Shown here: in pieces, positions 2,539-14,569 of the stretch | Layout: every line of letters begins with the position of its first letter | Position numbering within the stretch: the stretch's first letter is position 1 | From: Escherichia phage vB-Eco-KMB38 | Length of the DNA stretch: 64,000 nucleotides | Reading direction: 5' to 3' (one strand) | Sequence record: OR525701.1 | Translations under genes and position numbers: made by a program | Notes under the pieces: model-generated | The model's database searches: none | The model's input: the letters and a program-made list of their open reading frames with translations, nothing else | What the model was told of the DNA's origin: nothing

Positions 2539-4864
<2,326 letters not shown>

Positions 4865-4891
4865 AAATAAAGCAAATTAAGAGGAATTAAA

Positions 4892-6874
4892 ATGGCACTT
4901 CTCTCTCCGGGCGTTGAGCTCAAAGAAACTACCGTACAGAGTACTGTAGTTAATAACTCCACTGGTACTGCTGCCCTGGCTGGAAAATTCCAATGGGGAC
5001 CTGCATTCCAGATTAAACAAATCACCGATGAAGTTGCGTTGGTTGATATGTTTGGTACTCCTAATACGGATACAGCAGATTATTTCATGTCTGCTATGAA
5101 CTTCCTTCAATATGGTAACGACCTTCGTGTTGTACGCGCAGTCGATCGTGATACTGCTAAGAACTCATCTCCTGTGGCAGGAAACATTAATTTTACTATT
5201 TCTTCGGCTGGCACCAACTATAGAGTCGGTGATAAAGTTGTAGTTAAATATTCTACAGATATTATCGAACCAGACGGTGAAGTTACTTCGGTTGATTCTG
5301 ACGGTAAAATTTTGAATATCTTTATTCCTTCAGGTAAAATTATCGCTAAAGCGAAAGAAATCGGCGAATATCCTGAATTAGGTTCAAACTGGACTGCCGA
5401 AATGTCTGGGTCTTCTTCTGGTCTGTCTGCAGTAATTACTATTGATTCTGTTGTAATGGATTCTGGTATTCTGTTGACTGAAGTTGAAACTTCAGAAGAA
5501 GCTATTACTTCTCTAACTTTCCAAGAATCTATTAAAAAATACGGTGTCCCGGGTGTAGTTGCTCTTTATCCTGGTGAACTTGGCGACCAGCTCGAAATTG
5601 AAATCGTATCTAAAGCAGACTATGACAAAGGTGCTTCGGCCCAGTTAAAAATTTATCCTGATGGTGGTACTCGTGCATCTACTGCTAAAGCAATCTTTGG
5701 GTATGGCCCGCAAACTGATGACCAATATGCAATTATCGTTCGTCGCAACGACGCGGTAGTCCAGAGCGTAGTTCTTTCTACTAAACGTGGTGAACGCGAT
5801 ATTTATGGTAGCAATATCTTCATTGATGATTTCTTTGCTAAAGGCGCAAGCAATTATATTTTCGCTACGGCACAAGGTTGGCCAAAAGGTTTCTCTGGCG
5901 TAATCAAACTGAATGGTGGCTTATCATCTAATGAAACGGTTGAAGCCGGTGATTTAATGGAAGCTTGGGATTTGTTTGCTGACCGTGAATCGGTTAATGC
6001 ACAGTTGTTTATTGCTGGTTCTTGTGCTGGTGAATCTTTAGAAGTTGCTTCTACAGTTCAGAAACATGTTGTAGCAATTGGTGATTCTCGTCAAGATTGC
6101 TTGGTTCTTTGCTCACCGCCACGTGCAACTATAGTCGGTATTCCTGTTAATCGTGCAGTTGATAATCTGGTTGATTGGCGTACAGCGTCAGGAACTTACA
6201 CTGATAATAACTTTAATATAAGTTCTACTTATGCTGCTATTGATGGTAACTATAAATATCAATATGACAAATATAACGATGTGAATCGTTGGGTTCCATT
6301 AGCTGCTGATATCGCCGGTCTTTGTGCTCGAACAGACAATATTTCTCAGCCTTGGATGTCTCCAGCCGGTTATAACCGTGGACAAATTCTTAACGTTATT
6401 AAGCTTGCAATTGAAACTCGTCAAGCACAGCGTGATCGTTTGTATCAAGAAGCTATTAACCCTGTTACTGGTACCGGTGGTGATGGATATGTTCTGTACG
6501 GTGATAAAACTGCCACTTCTGTTCCTTCGCCATTTGACCGTATTAACGTACGTCGTTTGTTTAACATGGTTAAAACGAACATTGGTTCAGCATCCAAATA
6601 TCGCCTATTTGAATTGAACAACGCATTTACCCGTTCGTCTTTCCGTACAGAGACTTCTCAATATCTACAGGGTATTAAAGCTCTCGGTGGTGTATATAAC
6701 TTTAAAGTTGTTTGTGATACTACCAATAACACCCCAGCAGTTATCGACCGTAATGAATTTGTAGCTACTTTCTACTTACAACCTGCCCGCTCGATAAATT
6801 ATATTACGTTGAACTTTGTAGCAACAGCAACTGGCGCTGATTTCGACGAACTGATTGGTGCTGTAGGTGGCTAA
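4892..6874 (+). CDS. 18: tail sheath protein gp18
   Basis: 660 aa, preceded by TATAAATA late promoter; size and synteny match T4 gp18. Confidence 0.93.
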   Translation: MALLSPGVELKETTVQSTVVNNSTGTAALAGKFQWGPAFQIKQITDEVALVDMFGTPNTDTADYFMSAMNFLQYGNDLRVVRAVDRDTAKNSSPVAGNINFTISSAGTNYRVGDKVVVKYSTDIIEPDGEVTSVDSDGKILNIFIPSGKIIAKAKEIGEYPELGSNWTAEMSGSSSGLSAVITIDSVVMDSGILLTEVETSEEAITSLTFQESIKKYGVPGVVALYPGELGDQLEIEIVSKADYDKGASAQLKIYPDGGTRASTAKAIFGYGPQTDDQYAIIVRRNDAVVQSVVLSTKRGERDIYGSNIFIDDFFAKGASNYIFATAQGWPKGFSGVIKLNGGLSSNETVEAGDLMEAWDLFADRESVNAQLFIAGSCAGESLEVASTVQKHVVAIGDSRQDCLVLCSPPRATIVGIPVNRAVDNLVDWRTASGTYTDNNFNISSTYAAIDGNYKYQYDKYNDVNRWVPLAADIAGLCARTDNISQPWMSPAGYNRGQILNVIKLAIETRQAQRDRLYQEAINPVTGTGGDGYVLYGDKTATSVPSPFDRINVRRLFNMVKTNIGSASKYRLFELNNAFTRSSFRTETSQYLQGIKALGGVYNFKVVCDTTNNTPAVIDRNEFVATFYLQPARSINYITLNFVATATGADFDELIGAVGG

Positions 6875-11293: not shown

Positions 11294-12862
11294 ATGACTA
11301 CTATCAAAACTAAAGCTCAGCTCGTAGATAAATGGAAAGAACTGCTGGAAGGTGAAGGCCTGCCGGAAATCGCTAATAGCAAGCAGGCTATTATCGCTAA
11401 AATCTTCGAAAACCAGGAAAAAGATTTCGAAGTATCCCCTGAATATAAAGACGAGAAAATCGCTCAGGCATTTGGTTCTTTCTTGACCGAAGCTGAAATT
11501 GGTGGTGACCACGGTTATAATGCTCAGAACATCGCAGCAGGTCAAACCTCTGGTGCAGTAACCCAAATTGGGCCAGCAGTTATGGGTATGGTTCGTCGTG
11601 CTATTCCTAATCTGATCGCTTTTGATATTTGTGGTGTTCAGCCTATGAACAGCCCTACCGGTCAGGTATTTGCTCTCCGTGCAGTATATGGTAAAGACCC
11701 TATCGCTGCAGGCGCTAAAGAAGCTTTCCATCCGATGTATGCCCCAGACGCGATGTTCTCTGGTCAGGGTGCTGCTAAGAAATTCCCAGCTCTGGCTGCT
11801 GACACTACTACTGTTGTAGGTGATATCTATACTCACTTCTTCCAAGAAACTGGTACTGTATATCTGCAAGCTTCTGCTGTCGTAACACTTGATTCTAGTG
11901 CGACTGATGCAGCTAAATTAGATGCAGAAGTTAAGAAACAAATGGAAGCTGGTGCACTGGTAGAAATCGCTGAAGGTATGGCTACTTCTATCGCTGAACT
12001 TCAGGAAGGTTTCAACGGTTCTACCGATAACCCATGGAATGAAATGGGCTTCCGTATCGATAAACAAGTTATTGAAGCTAAATCTCGCCAGCTGAAAGCT
12101 GCTTACTCTATCGAATTAGCACAAGACCTCCGTGCAGTACACGGTATGGATGCTGATGCTGAACTGAGTGGTATTCTGGCTACAGAAATTATGCTAGAAA
12201 TCAACCGTGAAGTTGTTGATTGGATTAACTACTCTGCACAGGTTGGTAAATCTGGTATGACCCTGACTCCGGGTTCTAAAGCTGGTGTATTTGACTTCCA
12301 GGACCCGATTGATATCCGTGGTGCTCGTTGGGCCGGTGAAAGCTTTAAATCTCTGTTGTTCCAGATTGATAAAGAAGCAGTTGAAATTGCTCGTCAAACC
12401 GGTCGTGGTGAAGGTAACTTCATTATCGCTTCCCGTAACGTAGTTAACGTACTGGCTTCAGTTGATACTGGTATTTCTTACGCTGCACAGGGTCTGGCTT
12501 CTGGTTTTAATACCGACACTACTAAGTCTGTATTTGCCGGTGTACTTGGTGGTAAATACCGCGTATACATCGACCAGTATGCTAAACAGGATTACTTCAC
12601 CGTTGGTTACAAAGGCGCTAACGAAATGGATGCAGGTATTTACTATGCTCCTTACGTTGCACTTACCCCACTGCGTGGTTCCGATCCTAAGAACTTCCAG
12701 CCGGTAATGGGCTTTAAAACTCGTTACGGTATCGGTGTTAACCCGTTTGCTGAAAGTTCCCTGCAGGCTCCAGGTGCTCGCATCCAGTCCGGTATGCCGT
12801 CTATCCTGAACAGCCTTGGTAAGAACGCTTACTTCCGCCGTGTATATGTAAAAGGCATCTAA
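11294..12862 (+). CDS. 23: major capsid protein gp23
   Basis: 522 aa; size and synteny match T4 gp23; strong terminator follows. Confidence 0.95.
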   Translation: MTTIKTKAQLVDKWKELLEGEGLPEIANSKQAIIAKIFENQEKDFEVSPEYKDEKIAQAFGSFLTEAEIGGDHGYNAQNIAAGQTSGAVTQIGPAVMGMVRRAIPNLIAFDICGVQPMNSPTGQVFALRAVYGKDPIAAGAKEAFHPMYAPDAMFSGQGAAKKFPALAADTTTVVGDIYTHFFQETGTVYLQASAVVTLDSSATDAAKLDAEVKKQMEAGALVEIAEGMATSIAELQEGFNGSTDNPWNEMGFRIDKQVIEAKSRQLKAAYSIELAQDLRAVHGMDADAELSGILATEIMLEINREVVDWINYSAQVGKSGMTLTPGSKAGVFDFQDPIDIRGARWAGESFKSLLFQIDKEAVEIARQTGRGEGNFIIASRNVVNVLASVDTGISYAAQGLASGFNTDTTKSVFAGVLGGKYRVYIDQYAKQDYFTVGYKGANEMDAGIYYAPYVALTPLRGSDPKNFQPVMGFKTRYGIGVNPFAESSLQAPGARIQSGMPSILNSLGKNAYFRRVYVKGI

Positions 12863-12886
12863 TCTTAATTGATTAAATCTTATTTT

Positions 12887-12915
12887 GGGAGACTTCGGTC
12901 TCCCATTTTTGGTTT
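12887..12915 (+). terminator. rho-independent terminator after gene 23 (UUCG tetraloop)
   Basis: gggagacTTCGgtctccc followed by aTTTTTggTTTT. Confidence 0.8.
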
Positions 12916-13184
12916 TATTTCTGTGCAATTTCGATGTAAGTTTTCAAAATATTTTGCCAATTAGGCATACCTTCTTGGACATATGCTGGAGAACCGTCTT
13001 TGTTTTTGAATGATGCAAGTTTATCAGTGGCCCAATAACCTTTAGCTCGAGCTTCAGAATCAACTTTCATCCATACTTTGTTGAAGGCATTACCATTAAC
13101 TTTTGCACCATATTTTTCTACTAACTTAACGGCTTCAGTTTCCAGAACTTTTAAAGTATCTCGTAAGAAACGTGCTTTAGTCAT
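12915..13184 (-). CDS. hypothetical protein (89 aa), at the locus T4 uses for segD
   Basis: ATG with GAGGAG RBS 7 nt upstream; own early promoter at 13215-13244; no recognisable motif. Confidence 0.6.
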   Translation of the reverse strand: MTKARFLRDTLKVLETEAVKLVEKYGAKVNGNAFNKVWMKVDSEARAKGYWATDKLASFKNKDGSPAYVQEGMPNWQNILKTYIEIAQK

Positions 13185-13214
13185 TTTGTTTACTCCTCTG
13201 TAGTTGATAAGTCT

Positions 13215-13244
13215 ATAGTATCACATACCAAATACGTTGTAAAC
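13215..13244 (-). promoter_or_regulatory. early promoter (GTTTAC-N18-TACTAT) for the 89-aa ORF
   Basis: Minus strand GTTTACaacgtatttggtatgtgaTACTATagac upstream of the ATG at 13184. Confidence 0.65.
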
Positions 13245-13250
13245 AATCTT

Positions 13251-13258
13251 TATAAATA
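13251..13258 (+). promoter_or_regulatory. late promoter TATAAATA (gene 24)
   Basis: Exact TATAAATA 28 nt upstream of the gene 24 ATG. Confidence 0.75.
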
Positions 13259-13285
13259 ATCTATATCACATAAGGAAAAAATGCA

Positions 13286-14569
13286 ATGAGTAAAATCCAA
13301 AAATTATTGCGTGAATCTACAACGTCTACTAGCAACTCAATTGGTCGCCCAAATCTCGTTGCTTTGACTCGCGCTACGACTAAATTAATATATTCTGACA
13401 TTGTAGCAACACAAAGAACTAATCAACCTGTTGCTGCTTTTTATGGTATCAAATATCTTAACCCAGATAATGAATTCACATTTAAAACTGGTGCTACTTA
13501 TGCGGGTGAAGTTGGATATGTAGACCGAGAAAAAATTACTGAGCTCACAGAAGAATCAAAAGTCACACTAAATAAAGGTGATTTTTTCAAATATAATAAT
13601 ATCGTCTATAAAGTGTTAGAAGATACACCATTTGCAGATATTCAAGAAAGTGATCTAGAATTAGCTCTTCAGATTGCAGTCGTTCATTTAAAGGTACGGT
13701 TATTTTCAGATGCAGCGGTAACAAGCAAATTTGAAAGCTCCGATAGCGAAATTTCTGATGCAAGATTCCAGATTAATAAATGGCAAACTTCAGTCAAATC
13801 TCGTAAACTTAAAACCGGCCTCACGGTTGAATTAGCGCAAGATTTGGAAGCGAATGGATTTGATGCCCCTAACTTCTTAGAAGATTTGCTTGCTACTGAA
13901 ATGGCAGATGAAATTAATAAAGATATTCTTCAGTCTTTAATTACTGTATCGAAACGTTATAAAGTTACTGGAATTACTGACACTGGATTTATTGACTTGA
14001 GCTATGCATCCGCTCCAGAAGCAGGTCGTTCATTATATCGAATGGTGTGTGAAATGGTATCGCACATTCAAAAAGAGACAACTTATACTGCAACGTTTTG
14101 TGTAGCCTCAGCTCGTGCAGCTGCTATTCTTGCTGCTTCCGGTTGGTTAAAACATAAGCCAGAAGATGACAAGTATCTTTCACAAAATGCTTATGGATTC
14201 TTGGCAAATGGATTACCTCTTTACTGCGATACCAACAGCCCGTTAGATTATGTTATTGTGGGTGTTGTGGAAAATCTCGGTGAAAAAGAAATTGTAGGGT
14301 CCATCTTTTATGCTCCATACACTGAAGGAGTAGATTTAGATGACCCGGAACATGTTGGTGCATTTAAAGTTGTAGTTGATCCAGAAAGCTTGCAACCGTC
14401 TATCGGATTATTGGTTAGATATGCTTTATCAGCAAATCCTTACACAGTAGCAAAAGACGAAAAAGAAGCGAGAATAATTGATGGTGGGGACATGGATAAA
14501 ATGGCAGGACGTTCAGACTTGTCTGTTTTATTAGGTGTTAAACTACCAAAAATTATCATTGATGAATGA
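13286..14569 (+). CDS. 24: capsid vertex protein gp24
   Basis: 427 aa; late promoter at 13251-13258; synteny. Confidence 0.93.
   Translation: MSKIQKLLRESTTSTSNSIGRPNLVALTRATTKLIYSDIVATQRTNQPVAAFYGIKYLNPDNEFTFKTGATYAGEVGYVDREKITELTEESKVTLNKGDFFKYNNIVYKVLEDTPFADIQESDLELALQIAVVHLKVRLFSDAAVTSKFESSDSEISDARFQINKWQTSVKSRKLKTGLTVELAQDLEANGFDAPNFLEDLLATEMADEINKDILQSLITVSKRYKVTGITDTGFIDLSYASAPEAGRSLYRMVCEMVSHIQKETTYTATFCVASARAAAILAASGWLKHKPEDDKYLSQNAYGFLANGLPLYCDTNSPLDYVIVGVVENLGEKEIVGSIFYAPYTEGVDLDDPEHVGAFKVVVDPESLQPSIGLLVRYALSANPYTVAKDEKEARIIDGGDMDKMAGRSDLSVLLGVKLPKIIIDE

What the first reader, a model, noticed from the sequence alone, without database searches (positions are those of the whole stretch)
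12915..13184. Promoter-equipped 89-aa ORF between capsid genes 23 and 24, at the locus T4 uses for segD
A minus-strand ORF sits inside the plus-strand late structural block. It has a strong RBS (GAGGAG) and its own canonical early promoter (13215-13244), placed back to back with the gene 24 late promoter. T4 carries the homing endonuclease segD here; this protein has no GIY-YIG or other motif I can recognise. An early-expressed small protein inserted at a known mobile-element hotspot is a typical place to find anti-defense or host-takeover factors.
Basis: partly seen in the sequence, partly recalled or inferred. Interest (0 to 1): 0.5.

Follow-up and report, generated by a model that had tools for sequence, protein, structure and literature searches.

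The report
Small early accessory gene between capsid genes
This is a real, conserved, already-annotated small gene of unknown function (RB69ORF188c/189c, PHROG 6003) with its own host-type early promoter, sitting between the two capsid genes of an RB69-like phage in a slot that other T-even phages leave empty or fill with the SegD homing endonuclease.

Summary
The window is a Mosigvirus (RB69-like T-even phage).

The gene is real:
- It sits at the same junction in about 240 Mosig-, Dhaka- and Gaprivervirus genomes, down to 30% identity.
- It is under purifying selection (dN/dS 0.04-0.14).
- The promoter hexamers and their exact 17-nt spacing are kept while the spacer sequence diverges.

Distant homologs lie in non-structural regions of Vequintavirinae and roughly 48-kb Klebsiella-phage-like contigs. 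In the two 48-kb-type loci scanned, each follows a terminator and has its own sigma-70 promoter.

The slot is a true hotspot. It is empty in T2, holds segD in T4, and holds this ORF plus a segD-like gene in tandem in 38 Dhakaviruses.

It is not new. It is annotated as a hypothetical protein, and Nolan et al. (2006) predicted this promoter in RB69.

Function is unknown. The protein is basic (pI 9.6) and soluble, and is confidently modelled as three helices plus a beta-hairpin. No sequence or structure search found a characterised relative. An early host-directed binding factor is the likeliest role, but this is untested.

The parts
12915..13184 (-). Coding sequence of an 89-aa basic protein (pI 9.6). 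It is the intact form of RB69ORF188c plus 189c and belongs to PHROG 6003.
   Evidence: ORF list. phrog_6003 E=3.4e-45 over the full length. Syntenic homologs in JS10, VR20 and 04086. dN/dS 0.04-0.14. AF2 pLDDT 95.
13193..13198 (-). Shine-Dalgarno sequence GAGGAG, 8 nt upstream of the ATG.
   Evidence: Read directly from the sequence. A GGAG-type element lies at a similar position in the homologous loci.
13215..13223 (-). -10 hexamer TACTAT (13220-13215), preceded by a TGn extended -10 (TG at 13223-13222).
   Evidence: Consensus scan. TA(C/T)TAT or CATAAT is conserved in 7 diverged genomes with 81% pairwise identity.
13238..13244 (-). -35 element GTTTACA, the T4-type early promoter hexamer GTTTAC.
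   Evidence: Consensus scan. 96% pairwise identity and an exact 17-nt spacer in all genomes, against 39% spacer identity. Matches RB69 Pe:109605 predicted by Nolan 2006.
13251..13258 (+). Late promoter TATAAATA of gene 24, divergent from and adjacent to the early promoter.
   Evidence: Read directly from the sequence. Invariant in alignment A6. RB69 Pl:109573 in Nolan 2006.
12886..12915 (+). Intrinsic terminator of gene 23: an 8-bp GC-rich stem with a TTCG loop, then a T-run. It abuts the stop codon of the small ORF. On the minus strand the same hairpin is followed by AAAATAAG, so it has no U-tract.
   Evidence: Terminator scan. Annotated as a terminator in PhAPEC2. Listed as '23-><-RB69ORF188c' on the + strand only in Nolan 2006.
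11294..12862 (+). Gene 23 (major capsid protein), the left flank of the slot.
   Evidence: ORF list and annotation of the 99.7%-identical PhAPEC2 region.
13286..14569 (+). Gene 24 (capsid vertex protein), the right flank of the slot.
   Evidence: ORF list and annotation of PhAPEC2.

Best explanation
This is a genuine, non-essential accessory gene. Host RNA polymerase most likely transcribes it early in infection from its own sigma-70/T4-early-type promoter, antisense to the late capsid operon. The product is a small, soluble, basic protein: a three-helix bundle with a beta-hairpin and a conserved NGN..N loop. It has no catalytic motif. The most likely mode of action is stoichiometric binding of a host macromolecule, either an acidic protein or a nucleic acid, as a host-takeover or counter-defence factor. 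Shown here: the gene is real, it is under selection, the promoter architecture is conserved, the gene moves alone between unrelated phages, and the fold is modelled confidently. Inferred only: early timing, binding as the mode of action, and the host as the target.
For: Synteny at the 23/24 junction in three genera, down to 30-38% amino-acid identity. Purifying selection: pS is saturated at 0.7-0.8 while pN is 0.14-0.24, giving dN/dS 0.04-0.14. Promoter footprint: -35 at 96% identity, -10 at 81%, spacer exactly 17 nt but only 39% identical. The same promoter was predicted independently in RB69 at 29.9 bits. The T2-type empty junction lacks the promoter, so the promoter belongs to the insert. 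Homologs in Vequintavirinae lie within arrays of small ORFs. Homologs in two roughly 48-kb-type contigs each follow a terminator and carry a 10/12 sigma-70 promoter. No neighbouring gene is shared across these contexts. All 25 family members are basic (pI 8.0-9.9, all but one above 9.1) and hydrophilic. The AF2 model has pLDDT 95 with five concordant models. The frameshifted copies in RB69 and mogra show the gene is dispensable for propagation in the laboratory.
Confidence: 0.5

Rival explanations
1. The protein works in inter-phage or selfish-element conflict rather than against the host. Examples would be superinfection exclusion, or a functional link with the SegD homing endonuclease that shares its slot, such as modulating or tolerating cleavage at the 23/24 junction.
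For: 38 Dhakavirus records carry the ORF and a segD-like GIY-YIG gene in tandem on the same strand behind the same promoter. T4 has segD behind a similar promoter-like element. The SegD target is unknown (PMC2988022).
Against: Most carriers have no segD: all Mosigvirus copies seen, plus JS10 and VR20. The Vequintavirinae and 48-kb-phage homologs have no adjacent homing endonuclease. No conserved partner gene exists.
Confidence: 0.12
2. The unit regulates the phage's own genes. Either the basic protein binds phage DNA or RNA, or the early transcript reads through the U-tract-less hairpin and acts as antisense RNA against gene 23.
For: Basic charge across the family. No minus-strand intrinsic terminator was found between the ORF and gene 23. 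The promoter points into the capsid operon.
Against: Strong selection acts on the protein sequence itself. Homologs in other phages are not next to capsid genes. VR20 has a proper terminator in the ORF direction, so read-through is not a conserved feature. T2-type phages do without the whole unit.
Confidence: 0.12
3. It is a capsid-assembly accessory protein, placed there because it serves gp23 or gp24.
For: Only its position between genes 23 and 24.
Against: It lies on the opposite strand behind an early-type promoter, with no TATAAATA late promoter of its own. Homologs elsewhere sit in replication or early-type regions. It is absent from T4 and T2, which build the same capsid. It is frameshifted in the viable RB69 reference.
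Confidence: 0.04
4. It is a chance or decaying ORF with no function.
For: It is frameshifted in the RB69 and mogra records and truncated in a few others.
Against: About 240 phage records hold it, and nearly all the copies inspected are intact. dN/dS is far below 1. Residues are conserved across three phage lineages. The fold is predicted with confidence.
Confidence: 0.02

Closest known systems
RB69ORF188c / RB69ORF189c (NP_861878, NP_861879) and PHROG 6003
   Same: It is the same gene. RB69 is 97% identical at the DNA level across the locus. The PHROG match covers the full length with E=3.4e-45. The RB69 early promoter Pe:109605, late promoter Pl:109573 and the gene 23 terminator were already predicted.
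   Different: The RB69 reference has a +1 and a -1 frameshift that split the gene into 41-aa and 29-aa fragments. The window and most Mosigvirus genomes carry the intact 89-aa form. No function is recorded for the family.
T4 segD (free-standing GIY-YIG homing endonuclease gene)
   Same: Same slot between genes 23 and 24, same antisense orientation, and a similar upstream element: (G/A)TTTACA-N17-TA(C/T)TAT next to the gene 24 late promoter. In 38 Dhakaviruses a segD-like gene lies directly downstream of this ORF.
   Different: There is no sequence or domain relationship. The ORF is 89 aa with no GIY-YIG motif, against 223 aa for SegD. The ORF shows no hallmark of a nuclease or of self-mobility.
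Small early accessory proteins of T-even phages, as a kind (own knowledge, not compared here: Arn, Dmd; from papers found here: TifA, PMC10853763, and Emp/Gp94 of Mosigvirus AV110); also phage morons
   Same: It is small and non-essential, has a patchy distribution, is driven by a host-polymerase promoter, and sits in a variable slot. It is preceded by its own promoter in three unrelated phage backgrounds.
   Different: No member of this family matched any characterised protein in the Pfam, NCBIfam, PADLOC, PDB or BFVD searches. It is basic rather than acidic, which argues against a DNA-mimic mechanism. Its location inside the late structural block is unusual for T-even early genes.

Membership tests
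PHROG 6003 (unknown function) | Full-length match to the family profile | tested here: met
   E=3.4e-45, residues 1-89 against profile positions 1-90 of 90.
GIY-YIG homing endonuclease (SegD-like) | GIY-YIG catalytic domain and roughly 220-aa size | tested here: not met
   No Pfam GIY-YIG hit at E<=1. The ORF is 89 aa. True SegD homologs in the same slot are separate ORFs.
T4-type early (sigma-70) promoter | -35 GTTTAC, roughly 17-nt spacer, -10 TAnnnT, placed upstream of an ORF in the correct orientation | tested here: met
   GTTTACA-17-TACTAT with TGn. Conserved across 7 genomes with a variable spacer. HMM score 29.9 in RB69 (Nolan 2006).
T4-type early (sigma-70) promoter | Transcription start observed early in infection | not testable with these tools
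   No RNA data for any Mosig-, Dhaka- or Gaprivervirus were found.
Phage moron / autonomous accessory cassette | Own promoter and own terminator, present or absent between otherwise collinear genomes | tested here: inconclusive
   Own promoter and presence/absence polymorphism are met. The window has no U-tract terminator in the ORF direction, although VR20 has one.
DNA-mimic anti-restriction proteins (Ocr/Arn/ArdA type) | Strongly acidic surface that mimics DNA | tested here: not met
   pI 9.6 and net charge +5.5. All 25 family members have pI 8.0-9.9, all but one above 9.1.
Known defence or counter-defence proteins with solved structures or PADLOC models | Sequence or fold similarity | tested here: not met
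Pfam DUF4859 | Score above the gathering threshold | tested here: not met
   17.9 bits against a cut-off of 22.6. Only 3 of 25 family members hit it.

The most novel reading that the evidence does not exclude
The ORF is the founding member of an uncharacterised, horizontally mobile family of early phage proteins, with a fold that matches nothing solved. The family is shared by T-even-like, rV5-like and roughly 48-kb Klebsiella-type phages. Under this reading it neutralises a conserved enterobacterial target, a defence system or an essential host factor, through its conserved loop motif (N30-G31-N32, N35).
Probability: 0.35. Interest if true: 0.55.

Novelty: already known. Interest (0 to 1): 0.3.

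Why it matters
As it stands, this is one more annotated hypothetical early ORF of a T-even-type phage, and its promoter was predicted in 2006. Its value is as a well-defined candidate for testing. It is a single gene with its own conserved promoter, under purifying selection, and moved alone between three unrelated groups of virulent enterobacterial phages. It has a confident structure model and natural frameshifted copies (RB69, mogra). It fell outside a recent Mosigvirus early-protein screen because candidates were chosen by similarity to T4 early proteins and no Tequatrovirus homolog was found. The junction also gives a clean natural series for studying SegD homing, whose target is still unknown: empty, ORF, ORF plus segD, and segD alone.

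Tried and rejected
Searches for a characterised relative all failed:
- Pfam gave only a sub-threshold DUF4859 hit, and only 3 of 25 members matched it.
- NCBIfam and PADLOC gave nothing usable.
- PDB sequence profiles gave nothing significant.
- Foldseek against BFVD returned only a family member.
- The afdb50 library was unavailable.
- The exhaustive HMM search of 1.84 billion representatives found 7 proteins. Six are family members or fragments of them.

The seventh hit (P0013, 655 aa) carries five repeats that I recognise, from my own knowledge and not from a test, as cytochrome-b5-like. It matches only residues 40-70. I judge it a local coincidence inflated by repetition.

Other ideas rejected:
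- Paralogs in the window: none.
- A conserved partner gene across contexts: none.
- An Rfam RNA family: nothing reached a gathering score.

Literature checks also found nothing: accession numbers and ORF names, peptide strings and the PHROG id, and the supplements of two anti-defence discovery papers. Megablast of locus L011 against the phage collection found no match.

Full report
**Identity of the window and check of the observation**

The region 12700-13400 is 100% identical to Escherichia phages PTK and AlbertHofmann. It is 99.4-99.7% identical to PhAPEC2, JS09, HX01 and other Mosigvirus (RB69-like T-even) genomes. The ORF list confirms an 89-aa ATG-initiated ORF at 12915-13184 on the minus strand. 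It lies between gp23 (11294-12862, +) and gp24 (13286-14569, +).

Reading the minus strand gives, in order:
- GTTTACA at 13244-13238
- a 17-nt spacer
- TG at 13223-13222
- TACTAT at 13220-13215
- GAGGAG at 13198-13193
- the ATG at 13184

The consensus scan reports the same promoter. The gene 24 late promoter TATAAATA is at 13251-13258 on the plus strand, a few bases from the -35. The gene 23 terminator hairpin (12886-12905, plus a T-run) abuts the stop codon of the ORF.

**Is it a real gene?**

Yes. tblastn finds the protein in 239 phage records. About 120 are Mosigvirus copies at 90% identity or more. About 119 are copies at 30-38% identity. The JS10 and 04086 (Dhakavirus) and VR20 (Gaprivervirus) copies were inspected. 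In all three the homolog occupies the same position and orientation between genes 23 and 24.

Metagenomic T4-like contigs supply intermediates at 62-71% identity in the same context.

Nei-Gojobori counts show synonymous differences saturated (pS 0.69-0.81) while non-synonymous differences stay at 0.14-0.24. This gives dN/dS of 0.12 (window vs P0004), 0.14 (window vs P0006), 0.035 (P0004 vs P0005) and 0.10 (JS10 vs 04086).

**The promoter**

One consensus match proves nothing: the scan found 3 sites against 4.4 expected by chance. The comparative evidence is strong, though. In seven diverged genomes, every one has (G)T(T/G)TACA, exactly 17 nt, then TA(C/T)TAT or CATAAT. Mean pairwise identity is 96% for the -35, 81% for the -10, and only 39% for the spacer.

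Nolan et al. 2006 (PMC1524935, Additional files 3, 5 and 6) had already predicted three features in RB69. These are an early promoter on the minus strand at 109555-109605 (HMM score 29.9), a late promoter at 109573 (+), and the terminator '23-><-RB69ORF188c'.

The T2-type junction goes straight from TATAAATA to the terminator hairpin and has no such promoter. The promoter therefore belongs to the insert, not to the capsid-gene scaffold.

No canonical late promoter (TATAAATA) precedes the ORF on its own strand. By eye I also saw no MotA-box-like TGCTT motif there, but I did not run a pattern search for it.

Early timing is inferred from promoter type. No transcript data for any Mosig-, Dhaka- or Gaprivervirus were found.

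**Prior annotation**

The gene is annotated as a hypothetical protein throughout. PhAPEC2 notes it as similar to RB69ORF188c. It matches PHROG 6003 (unknown function) over its full length at E=3.4e-45.

In the RB69 reference the gene is split into ORF188c (41 aa) and ORF189c (29 aa) by a +1 and a -1 frameshift within a short divergent patch. Phage mogra is also split, and a few records are truncated. These are either sequencing errors or real inactivation. In either case, viable isolates are recorded without an intact copy, so the gene is dispensable in the laboratory.

**The slot is a hotspot**

T4 has segD (GIY-YIG) between genes 23 and 24 on the minus strand. Only 53 records carry that full arrangement. 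The Tequatrovirus rows listed (T2, RB9, RB33, AR1 and others) have an empty junction, which I read directly only in T2. In T2 the intergenic stretch between genes 23 and 24 is 83 bp.

In Dhakavirus phage 04086 I found an unannotated 223-aa ORF directly downstream of the small ORF and on the same strand. It is 57% identical to T4 SegD (E=9e-86) and is inserted between the last codons of the small ORF and the terminator. Thirty-eight records share this tandem arrangement, and several annotate the second gene as a homing endonuclease.

So the slot has four states:
- empty
- promoter plus ORF
- promoter plus ORF plus segD
- promoter-like element plus segD (T4)

T4's segD is preceded by ATTTACA-N17-TATTAT next to the same TATTTATA. 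The 2010 review states that no segD-specific promoter could be identified (PMC2988022).

**Spread beyond T-even phages**

Profile searches give a small family of about 30 clusters of 83-93 aa. Members occur in three other settings:
- Vequintavirinae (Acinetobacter phage ABPH49 and metagenomic relatives), inside long arrays of small same-strand ORFs.
- A 46-50-kb contig related to Klebsiella and Kluyvera phages (vB_KsaM-C1, MEW1, IME346), directly after the DNA primase gene. The related phage vB_KsaM-C1 has an unrelated small ORF at that position.
- A 33-kb contig with a GpJ-type tail-tip gene and a helicase gene. I did not compare this contig with the phage collection.

In the last two contexts the gene follows a terminator and has its own 10/12 sigma-70 promoter. 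No neighbouring gene is shared between contexts. The gene therefore moves alone and tends to bring or acquire a host-polymerase promoter.

**The protein**

Invariant residues across 25 members are M1, K3, F6, G31, N32, N35 and Q70. L14 and N30 are nearly invariant. Every member is hydrophilic and basic: pI is 8.0-9.9, with all but one above 9.1. The window protein has pI 9.62 and net charge +5.5.

With the 25-sequence alignment, AlphaFold2 gives mean pLDDT 95 and pTM 0.81, and all five models score 93.8 or higher. The elements are helix 3-25, helix 31-48, beta-hairpin 52-60/66-70 and helix 76-88. From the order of these elements alone, the NGN loop should lie at the same end of the bundle as the hairpin tip. 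I could not check coordinates.

I saw no catalytic motif. The basic charge is the opposite of what DNA-mimic anti-restriction proteins show.

**Interpretation**

The best-supported reading has several parts:
- It is an autonomous accessory unit expressed early by host RNA polymerase.
- It encodes a small binding protein aimed at a host protein or nucleic acid, for takeover or counter-defence.
- It is non-essential.
- It is exchanged horizontally among virulent enterobacterial phages.

Only the gene's reality, its selection, its promoter architecture and its mobility are shown here. The function is inference.

Four rivals remain, given with my confidence in each:
- a role in phage-phage or homing-endonuclease conflict, suggested by the tandem with segD (0.12)
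- self-regulation by the protein or by antisense read-through into gene 23, since the window's hairpin lacks a U-tract on the minus strand (0.12)
- a capsid accessory role, supported by position only and contradicted by strand, promoter class and the distribution of homologs (0.04)
- a non-functional ORF, contradicted by dN/dS (0.02)

**Novelty and score**

The feature is already in the databases and its promoter was predicted in 2006, so I rate it already known. Function is uncharacterised. No paper in the searchable library mentions the gene, its accessions, its peptide strings or its PHROG id. Two anti-defence discovery studies do not list it in their supplements. The 2026 AV110 Mosigvirus early-protein screen chose candidates by similarity to T4 early proteins, and no Tequatrovirus homolog of this ORF was found, so it fell outside that screen.

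It is a sound but ordinary candidate. Interest is 0.3.

Noticed in passing
L004 2771-3442 (+) (Escherichia phage 04086, OR842557.1); also 38 records: An unannotated 223-aa SegD-like GIY-YIG homing endonuclease gene (57% identical to T4 SegD, E=9e-86) lies directly downstream of the small ORF and on the same strand. It is inserted at the last codons of the ORF, whose C-terminus changes from KIA to KAE. Thirty-eight Dhakavirus records share this ORF-plus-segD tandem.
   Followed up: yes
L025 about 2760-2800 (-) (T4, upstream of segD): T4 segD is preceded by ATTTACA-N17-TATTAT with a TGn extended -10, next to the gene 24 late promoter. This is the same layout as the small ORF's promoter. The 2010 review (PMC2988022) states that no segD-specific promoter could be found.
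   Followed up: partly
L015 4292-4532 (-) (RB69 NC_004928, 109291-109531); L020 201-469 (phage mogra): The RB69 reference copy has a +1 and a -1 frameshift within a short divergent patch, which splits the gene into ORF188c and ORF189c. Phage mogra is also split into two ORFs. These are either sequencing errors or natural inactivation.
   Followed up: partly
L026 262-346 (phage T2, MH751506.1): The T2-type 23/24 junction is empty. The 83-bp stretch between the two genes holds the gene 24 late promoter followed directly by the gene 23 terminator hairpin, with no early promoter. The other Tequatrovirus rows listed show the same coverage pattern.
   Followed up: yes
L002 1-2399; L003 1-2394; L007 1337-3901: Gene 24 (capsid vertex protein) is tandemly duplicated in Dhakavirus JS10, Gaprivervirus VR20 and a 173-kb metagenomic T4-like contig. 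The window has a single copy.
   Followed up: no
P0013 (655 aa, metagenomic): A protein with five repeats that look cytochrome-b5-like (my recognition of the sequence, not tested) matches residues 40-70 of the family profile (WxT[DE]KLAxYxxKxxxPAY[IV]) at E=9.6e-6. This is probably a repeat-inflated local coincidence.
   Followed up: partly
P0006 (L007 4001-4273): JGI names this 90-aa family member 'NADPH-dependent curcumin reductase CurA'. Given its size and its position between capsid genes, this is evidently a mis-annotation.
   Followed up: no
L004 3502-5061 (-) (phage 04086): The record annotates gp23 as only 3502-4611 and adds a 'hypothetical protein' at 4633-5046 on the opposite strand. 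The full 519-aa gp23 ORF (3502-5061) is intact, so this is an annotation artefact.
   Followed up: partly
L006 3869-3943; L009 4905-4967: In two non-T-even contigs the family member is preceded by an intrinsic terminator and then a 10/12 sigma-70 promoter. In L009 it sits directly after the primase gene, where the related phage vB_KsaM-C1 has an unrelated small ORF.
   Followed up: yes
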